Shown here: piece by piece, positions 25,475 to 26,180 of the stretch
Numbering within the stretch: position 1 is the first letter of the stretch
Layout: every line of letters starts with the position of its first letter
DNA from: Eledone cirrhosa
Lineage: Eukaryota
Assembly (NCBI GenBank): GCA_964016885.1
Contig: OZ024751.1
Coordinates: 3,286,001-3,350,000, forward strand
Direction: 5' to 3'
Length of the DNA: 64,000 nucleotides
The notes under the pieces: model-generated
The model's database searches: none
What the model was told of the DNA's origin: nothing
The model's input: only the letters and a program-made list of their open reading frames with translations
Translations under genes and position numbers: made by a program

Positions 25475-26180
25475 ATAAATTTTAAAACATTCGCTGTACT
25501 CACTATATGTGCCTTTATATATATATATATATATATATATATATATATATATATATATATATATATATATATATATATATATATATATATATATATATAT
25601 ATATATATATATATATATATAAAGGCACATATAGTGAGTACAGCGAATGTTTTAAAATTTATTTTAAAACTTTTTCTCTATTTGCTAGACCTGGATTTTA
25701 TATGTTCTGGCTTGTTAATTTATTAACCCGCCATAGAACCACATTGGCATACGGTTGGATAATACTTGTATCCCTATATGTATTTTTTACACGTAGGAAC
25801 ACATACTTTATTATTATTAATCTCCCCTAAGGCTGAGATAAAACTTGGCCGTTTGAACTGCTGCTATTTCTAGTGGAAGTACATTGACCTGTTCACCCTG
25901 CCTTTTGTCTTTGCACACCAGACAGAATTATTTCTTTCATCATTCACTCTTATCTGGGAATGGTTTTGTATGGCGTCAGTTTGTGATTTAAACTCGAGAA
26001 TTTTAAATTCTCCGAGCGAGAAGAGCCTTCTGAAGATAGTTCCCTTCTCAATGAAGTCCGCTTGGATTATCCGTTTATTTTGGAACTTCAAACCGCGGTA
26101 AAGGCACATATAGTGATTACGGCGAATTTTTTTAATTTATTTAAAAACTTTTTCTCTATTTGCCAGATCTGGATTTTATA
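25475..26180 (+). mobile_element. Family C element: ~479-nt unit with an ~80-bp terminal redundancy, an inverted 5' piece and an HHR (26025-26105)
   Basis: aaggcacatatagtga... occurs at 25622 and 26101, and inverted at 25475-25514; gcctt-CTGAAGA-tagttcc..ggaactt-CAAA-ccgcgg-TA-aaggc. Confidence 0.75.

What the first reader, a model, noticed from the sequence alone, without database searches (positions are those of the whole stretch)
25475..26180. Family C insertion starts exactly at its own predicted hammerhead cleavage site
Seen: gcctt-CTGAAGA-tagttcc(38 nt)ggaactt-CAAA-ccgcgg-TA^aaggcacatatagtg, with cleavage predicted after 26100 and a palindromic stem III ACCGCGGT. The element's 5' end at 25622 is aaggcacatatagtg, the post-cleavage sequence, directly after (TA)n. 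This gives a 479-nt unit plus ~80 nt of redundancy. A 40-bp inverted copy (25475-25514) ends at the same point across the (TA)n tract. This copy has CAAA for GAAA and is probably dead. Inference: a cDNA of a self-cleaved, greater-than-unit-length RNA from a second retrozyme-like family.
Basis: partly seen in the sequence, partly recalled or inferred. Interest (0 to 1): 0.8.

Follow-up and report, generated by a model that had tools for sequence, protein, structure and literature searches.

The report
Jumping-gene copy starting at ribozyme cut
This is a copy of a small non-coding jumping element of a known kind, and it begins exactly where its own self-cutting RNA would cut, which hints, from one case, that the cut RNA is what gets copied back into the genome.

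Summary
Observation confirmed. A type I hammerhead (26025-26105) is predicted to cut after 26100; the insertion starts with the post-cut sequence at 25622 (2-nt TA ambiguity); a perfect 41-bp inverted arm lies across (TA)53.

The family is high-copy and keeps GAAA: G in about 99% of contig depth and 159 of 167 reads. Stem II shows two apparent compensatory pairs (phase not shown). So this copy's CAAA is a rare, probably inactivating, change.

The layout is that of a Penelope-like element (PLE) insertion: head-to-head arms ending +41 and +80 after the cut (39-nt tail), in (TA)n, beside Hydra-type PLE fragments. All 7 substitutions between the 5' segment and the 3' repeat are derived in the 3' repeat, favouring a linear two-unit RNA template over a circular monomer.

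A family-wide pile-up of 5' ends at the cut was not shown; 0 of 6 visible inversion ends lay there. In-window stops just after cuts are enriched in tandem families (5 of 9) but not when all are pooled (6 of 23, P=0.09).

Verdict: new member of the non-LTR retrozyme / non-autonomous PLE kind, with a testable hint on the open role of PLE hammerheads.

The parts
25475..25515 (-). Inverted short arm, +1 to +41 after the cut; identical to 25622-25662; ends in the apical loop of the post-cut hairpin
25516..25621 (.). Pure (TA)53 between the head-to-head arms; probably target DNA
25622..26100 (+). 479-nt non-coding unit, cut site to cut site, 36.7% GC
25632..25687 (+). Post-cut hairpin (+11 to +66); the +1..+82 stretch folds at -15.6 kcal/mol here, -10.0 in the 3' repeat; candidate RT-binding or initiation element (inferred)
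   Evidence: z -1.97; 18 of 500 shuffles as stable
26025..26105 (+). Type I hammerhead; U.U at base of stem II, long loop II, 2-bp helix III with palindromic loop; G12 replaced by C at 26089; predicted cut 26100/26101
26101..26180 (+). Start of a second unit, +1 to +80, carrying 7 derived substitutions and an indel; +42 to +80 is the PLE-type tail; family-wide 3' end
26181..26764 (.). (TA)n-rich target tract, shared with a Hydra-type PLE fragment at 26765-27598 on the minus strand

Best explanation
A copy of a non-autonomous, hammerhead-bearing retroelement (non-LTR retrozyme type, 479-nt unit) put into a (TA)n tract by the RT/GIY-YIG protein of a Penelope-like element, most likely of the Hydra clade. 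Steps: (1) a tandem or partial-tandem source is transcribed (inferred). (2) An intact upstream hammerhead cuts and gives the RNA a physical 5' end at +1 (inferred from the junction). (3) The next hammerhead is not cut, here helped by the G12C change if that predates insertion (inferred). (4) The PLE protein nicks both strands of (TA)n and primes cDNA internally at two fixed sites, +80 of the second unit and about +41 of the first (layout shown; mechanism from PLE literature). (5) Both cDNAs run to the RNA's 5' end and join (TA)n through the TA microhomology, leaving head-to-head arms, one with a 39-nt tail.
For: Family selected for a ribozyme: 26089 is G in 5999.6 of 6073.7 (X1) and 3914.9 of 3960 (X2, same sample) contig depth and 159 of 167 reads (X6). 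Stem II variants A26038T/T26087A and T26040C/A26085G occur at similar frequencies (X1 58/57% and 58/65%; X6 35/31% and 40/34%). Fixed 3' end: 16 (X1) and 21 (X2) contigs run off at the +80 end into (AT)n and then unlike flanks. In PAc, RT starts 85-92 nt after the hammerhead cut (my subtraction from the positions). Inverted 5'-truncated arm plus a 30-40 bp tail at one end is the described PLE layout; five other hammerhead families in the window also show a short and a long 3' end. PLE fragments with the CxCX5C linker of the (TA)n-targeting Hydra clade lie next door. Linear two-unit template: inverted arm vs 5' segment 0 differences in 41; all 7 substitutions between 5' segment and 3' repeat are the minority base in the 3' repeat (two-sided P 0.016, or 0.031 counting the adjacent pair once); all three pieces share a rare G at +15 (98% A in X1), so one source lineage. 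In family A one arm of each of 4 insertions starts +12 to +39 after a cut; with C counted once, 5 of 9 arms stop within +1..+41, P about 0.001, one-sided KS P 0.014.
Against: One event. The +1..+41 zone was chosen after seeing the data. In the five other families only 1 of 14 arms stops there (2.5 expected); pooled, 6 of 23, P 0.088. In one search, 0 of 6 ends of the 3 inversion joints of other family C copies lie at +1..+41 (nearest -7), and no loose end or pile-up at 26099-26101 is among the rows shown. A family-wide short end at +41 was not seen for family C; it is inferred by analogy. In PAc uncleaved RNA is the main substrate in vitro and no RNA-seq reads began or ended at the cut. No autonomous PLE with a homologous terminal repeat was found in the window. 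When G12C arose cannot be dated; family A insertion 46682-47732 reads through an intact hammerhead, so a dead one is not needed.
Confidence: 0.6

Rival explanations
1. Same element and same PLE-type insertion, but the 5' end is an ordinary random truncation that joined (TA)n at a TA step which happens to be the cleavage triplet; the inverted arm is a later fold-back copy made at the self-complementary (TA)n and ends there by construction.
For: 42 TA steps in the unit give a 2.4% chance per insertion, with about 15 hammerhead-bearing insertions in the window (23 arms tallied). The 188-bp palindrome is perfect. No pile-up seen; pooled arm test not significant.
Against: A longer TA-type microhomology (ATATA, +8 to +12) was not used. 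The +41/+80 offset fits the PLE tail. Family A arms also stop shortly after cuts (4 of 8, P 0.004).
Confidence: 0.22
2. Rolling-circle model: RT starts at +80 on a circular monomer, crosses the ligated junction, goes round once and stops where the circle has been re-cut.
For: Animal retrozymes accumulate as circular RNAs and this route is the published proposal. The circularised unit folds better than shuffles (z -2.4, 0 of 40). In family A insertion 46682-47732 the three pieces differ about equally (2-4%), as identical-at-birth copies would.
Against: It predicts identical 5' segment and 3' repeat at birth; all differences fall on the 3' repeat (star-tree P 0.0015, or 0.005 for any one branch), and G12C would have to arise afterwards. 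Gene conversion between the inverted arms could erase part of this signal but not the three differences beyond +41.
Confidence: 0.1
3. RT stalls at the folded hammerhead or a protein bound to it on an uncleaved RNA, so 5' ends collect just 3' of the ribozyme without any cut.
For: Family A arms stop at +12, +14, +37, +39, near but not at the cut. PAc uses uncleaved RNA in vitro.
Against: A structural stop should fall at the 3' edge of stem I (+5/+6) or beyond, not at +1. At least 16 of 24 arms pass through a hammerhead.
Confidence: 0.08

Closest known systems
Metazoan non-LTR retrozymes (Cervera and de la Pena 2020, PMC7229834; Li et al. 2026, bioRxiv 10.64898/2026.07.22.740005)
   Same: Non-coding unit of a few hundred bp, GC under 50%, type I hammerhead; U.U at the base of helix II and 2-bp helix III with tetraloop as in axolotl HHR_Amex2; lives beside PLEs; solo derivatives are described.
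   Different: This copy has 1.17 units and one (changed) hammerhead, so it is not an 'active' retrozyme by Li's two-HHR rule; loop II is 38 nt; expression and circles untested. The sections I read argue for PLE mobilisation from co-occurrence and phylogeny, not from insertion ends.
EN+ Penelope-like elements, Hydra clade and PAc/Poseidon (Craig et al. 2021, PMC8557442; Frangieh et al. 2024, PMC11167929)
   Same: Partial tandem, adjacent inverted 5'-truncated arm, 30-40 bp tail at one end, (TA)n target, 3' end about 80-90 nt after the hammerhead cut.
   Different: No RT/GIY-YIG ORF; arms separated by (TA)53 rather than directly joined; both 5' ends at the cut, whereas PAc showed no RNA ends there.
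R2 elements with an HDV-like ribozyme (Eickbush et al. 2013, PMC3774820; abstract only)
   Same: The ribozyme cut defines the 5' junction of the inserted copy, which is joined through chance microhomology.
   Different: Different ribozyme and RT class; R2 is autonomous, rDNA-specific and primed at the RNA 3' end.

Membership tests
Non-LTR retrozyme | Type I hammerhead with conserved core | tested here: met
   Family majority CUGANGA/GAAA/UH with apparent compensatory stem II variants; this copy itself has C at 12
Non-LTR retrozyme | Short non-coding unit, GC under 50% | tested here: met
   479 nt, 36.7% GC; longest frames lying inside the element 75 and 88 aa; 0 Pfam hits in 4 frames scanned
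Non-LTR retrozyme | Tandem repeats with at least two hammerheads | tested here: inconclusive
   Not met by this copy (1.17 units). 'Goes back 478' joints in X1, X2, X6 show the unit's circular order in other copies, but the reference was permuted, so they do not count units
Non-LTR retrozyme | Self-cleavage and linear/circular RNA in vivo | not testable with these tools
   No assay possible; no RNA holder listed
Non-LTR retrozyme | Target-site duplication | tested here: inconclusive
   Both flanks are microsatellite
PLE-mobilised element | Partial tandem with adjacent inverted 5'-truncated arm | tested here: met
   with a (TA)53 spacer
PLE-mobilised element | 30-40 bp tail at one end (two fixed RT start sites) | tested here: inconclusive
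   39-nt offset in this copy; +80 end recurrent in 16 and 21 contigs; recurrence of the +41 end not seen
PLE-mobilised element | (TA)n target, as for Hydra and Naiad clades | tested here: met
   (3' loose ends begin with (AT)n), 43
PLE-mobilised element | Homology to the terminal repeat of an autonomous partner | tested here: inconclusive
   None within 64 kb; no genome held
Autonomous PLE | ORF with RT and GIY-YIG endonuclease | tested here: not met

The most novel reading that the evidence does not exclude
In this lineage hammerhead-cut linear multimer RNAs, not circles or uncut precursors, are a regular template for PLE reverse transcriptase: a live upstream ribozyme sets the RNA 5' end, an uncut or dead downstream one lets a full unit be copied, and both cDNAs of a two-primer insertion run off at the cut. 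Insertion ends would then be a genome-wide fossil record of PLE hammerhead cleavage in vivo and direct structural evidence that PLEs mobilise animal retrozymes.
Probability: 0.3. Interest if true: 0.7.

Novelty: new member of a known kind. Interest (0 to 1): 0.42.

Why it matters
The role of the hammerhead in endonuclease-bearing PLEs is called unclear in Craig 2021, and the in vitro study read here found uncut RNA to be the main substrate and no RNA ends at the cut. How animal retrozymes integrate is also still a proposal. If 5' ends of a high-copy family collect at the cut, this could be settled from an assembly alone. The family has over a thousand contigs in one run, so the test is cheap. 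One insertion does not settle it.

Tried and rejected
No whole genome is held, so copies could not be counted or their ends mapped. Rfam: whole window gave only microsatellite-driven miRNA matches among the 150 of 425 rows shown; the element gave 3 chance matches. No RNA holder listed. Collection scans: 0 matches, 1, 2; all three are isolated 20-mers with no further likeness, so chance. The pile-ups table 6 are library artefacts: all 5 'end' rows shown sit on AATT sites and the 'begin' row one change from GCATGC; I read these as the digestion sites of the RAD library (enzyme identity recalled). The loose ends at 25717 and 25999 sit on the same sites and were rejected as element ends. The contig depth step across the cut (6074 to 9347 in X1, 3960 to 7744 in X2) is not seen in reads (167 to 166), and contig depth is no copy number, so it is not used. 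X4 (organism B) gave 4 contigs, none over the core; not used as range evidence. One search was swamped by microsatellite hits and redone. Pfam did not recognise the two PLE fragments; their identity rests on motifs read and Atlas look-alikes. The idea that a dead inner hammerhead is required was dropped. Earlier-finding searches by place and sequence were empty.

Full report
Setting. The window is animal DNA rich in microsatellites, with a homeodomain exon near 18260-18370 on the minus strand (E 0.0025) and many retroelement relics. The nearest Atlas cluster to one PLE fragment is eukaryotic, commonest Mollusca, on 3 records. My impression that this is a cephalopod is recalled, not shown by any search. 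No genome is held.

Observation. The core starts at 26030, the cut is predicted after 26100, and the post-cut sequence recurs at 25622 and, inverted, at 25515. The inverted arm is 41 bp and 25475-25662 is a perfect palindrome around (TA)53. The junction reads TA then the post-cut sequence both at the microsatellite and at the ribozyme, so the 5' end is fixed to within three positions. The motif is not chance: 0 of 5000 shuffles passed a relaxed descriptor. In a fold of 26025-26105 alone, stems I and II form in the minimum-energy structure; with more upstream sequence a rival fold wins. Rfam has no matching model.

The family. I laid 25690-26192 on 4 of the 8 listed runs: 1088 and 1115 contigs of one sample, 4 contigs of a second organism, and 1495 RAD reads. 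G12 is the general base of the hammerhead (established knowledge, recalled), so this copy is probably inactive. Two stem II pairs vary in a compensatory way at similar frequencies (A-U to U-A at 26038/26087, U-A to C-G at 26040/26085); the table does not show phase. No variant in 26025-26036 or 26090-26105 is among the 41 rows shown; 155 rows are hidden. Sixteen and 21 contigs leave the reference at the +80 end into (AT)n and then unlike flanks, so the 3' end is fixed across copies.

Do 5' ends pile up at the cut? Not shown. No loose end or pile-up at 26099-26101 is among the rows displayed (300 and 1 hidden). The displayed pile-ups sit on AATT or near-GCATGC sites and are library artefacts. 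The 3 opposite-strand joints have 0 of 6 ends in +1..+41, the nearest at -7. The test is weak: contigs collapse (TA)n junctions, RAD reads favour internal fragments, and the tool drops some reads without notice. It neither supports nor refutes.

Layout. Craig et al. 2021 (passages and section 11 read) describe PLE insertions as partial tandems with an adjacent inverted 5'-truncated copy and a 30-40 bp tail at one end; Hydra-clade elements have a CxCX5C linker and insert in (TA)n. Frangieh et al. 2024 (parts 1-2 of 4 read, supplements searched without hits, figures not seen) show that PLE RT starts internally at two sites that bound the tail, that both strands are cut and extended, and that the start lies at ORF +111-118 with the hammerhead cut at +26. 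Here the arms end at +41 and +80. The other five hammerhead families in the window also have a short and a long 3' end: A 217/275, B 56/about 150, D 39/104, E 20/88, F 27/about 108. PLE fragments with CxCX5C lie at 26765-27598 and about 29840-31290, the first in the same (TA)n tract and with its own long-stem-II hammerhead. None shares sequence with family C. So the element works like PLE cargo; the partner is not identified.

Template. The inverted arm equals the 5' segment at 41 of 41 positions. The 3' repeat differs from the 5' segment by 7 substitutions and an indel, and at all 7 the 5' segment has the family majority base (59% and 70% at the adjacent pair, 90% or more at the other five, X1). 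Two-sided P is 0.016, or 0.031 with the pair as one event; on a three-branch star it is 0.0015-0.005. All three pieces share a G at +15 where 98% of X1 depth has A, so they come from one lineage. This fits a linear RNA with two already different units, starting at a cut. Such sources exist here: neighbouring units of the family A array differ by 16-35 substitutions and 21 of 26 scored cores are intact. It fits a circular monomer badly. By contrast, the pieces of family A insertion 46682-47732 differ evenly (2-4%) and cross an intact core, so a dead inner ribozyme is not required.

Control within the window. Family A arms start at -86, +14, -116, +39, -184, +37, +12, +173 (the 29-unit array was counted as a single-unit arm). 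With C counted once, 5 of 9 stop within +1..+41 against 10% exposure (P 0.001; zones of 15 and 60 nt give 0.002 and 0.008; KS 0.014). The zone was chosen after looking. In families B, D, E, F and the PLE at 26765 only 1 of 14 arms stops there, and pooled it is 6 of 23, P 0.088 (F positions approximate, one E start a lower bound). The signal is therefore limited to the two families with a closed repeat unit.

Mechanism, shown versus inferred. Shown: ribozyme motif and its conservation, fixed 3' end, arm layout, (TA)n target, polarised divergence. Inferred: transcription, cleavage, two-site priming by a Hydra-type protein, run-off at the RNA 5' end, and that (TA)53 is target DNA left between two nicks (RT-added repeats, a (TA)n carried in the source transcript, or a later fold-back are not excluded). 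I put 0.6 on the full model, 0.22 on a chance junction with fold-back, 0.1 on a re-cut circle and 0.08 on stalling at an uncut ribozyme. That the element is PLE-mobilised hammerhead cargo is common to all four.

Comparison and novelty. Closest are non-LTR retrozymes (Cervera 2020, parts 2-4 of 6 read; Li 2026, parts 1-3 of 5 read) and PLE terminal-repeat hammerheads (Cervera 2014, parts 1-2 of 4 read; review PMC6765202, passages). A ribozyme cut that sets the 5' junction is known for R2 (PMC3774820, abstract). I found no paper reporting PLE or retrozyme insertions that begin at the hammerhead cut, or this family, in searches; that library lacks most subscription papers, Repbase and Dfam were not available, and bioRxiv supplements were closed, so prior annotation is quite possible. 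Verdict: new member of a known kind; interest 0.42, because it offers a cheap test of an open question but rests on one event.

Noticed in passing
window 4606-17010, 4265-4605, 34645-35238, 46682-47732, 61055-61353: Family A: 422-bp hammerhead array of about 29.5 units with mixed live and changed cores, plus three dispersed head-to-head insertions; all four have one short (+217) and one long (+275) end, and one arm starting +12 to +39 after the cut. The 46682 insertion has a roughly 12-bp AT-rich target duplication.
   Followed up: yes
window 26765-27598 (-): 5'-truncated Hydra-type PLE (CxCX5C linker, GIY-YIG start) ending in a type I hammerhead with an 85-nt extended stem II, cut at 26819, 3' end about +55 into (TA)n.
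   Followed up: partly
window 29840-31290 (-) and 20690-21150 (-): Two more PLE fragments with 3' hammerheads; the first has a degenerate core near 29891, the second (family E) recurs at 28613-28790.
   Followed up: partly
window 3645-4056, 17030-17171, 61387-61798; 31469-31712: Families B and D: inverted pairs whose arms both start 56-100 nt upstream of the cut, possibly a transcription start.
   Followed up: partly
window 17303-17452, 20166-20357, 31844-32055: Family F: hammerhead-like motif with CAGAAGA in both copies that cover the core; one arm starts +8 after the predicted cut.
   Followed up: partly
window 28980-29124 (+) and 31260-31396 (-): A repeated 130-nt segment with a perfect 6-bp stem I around a hammerhead-like core altered at both G8 and G12 in both copies; fused to the 5' end of the PLE fragment.
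   Followed up: no
window 25707-25757: This part of the unit has 10-25 times the contig depth of most of the rest; perhaps shared with a larger related family or the autonomous partner.
   Followed up: no
window 18260-18370 (-): Paired-class homeobox exon (aristaless-like by recall); the elements lie in or near this gene.
   Followed up: no
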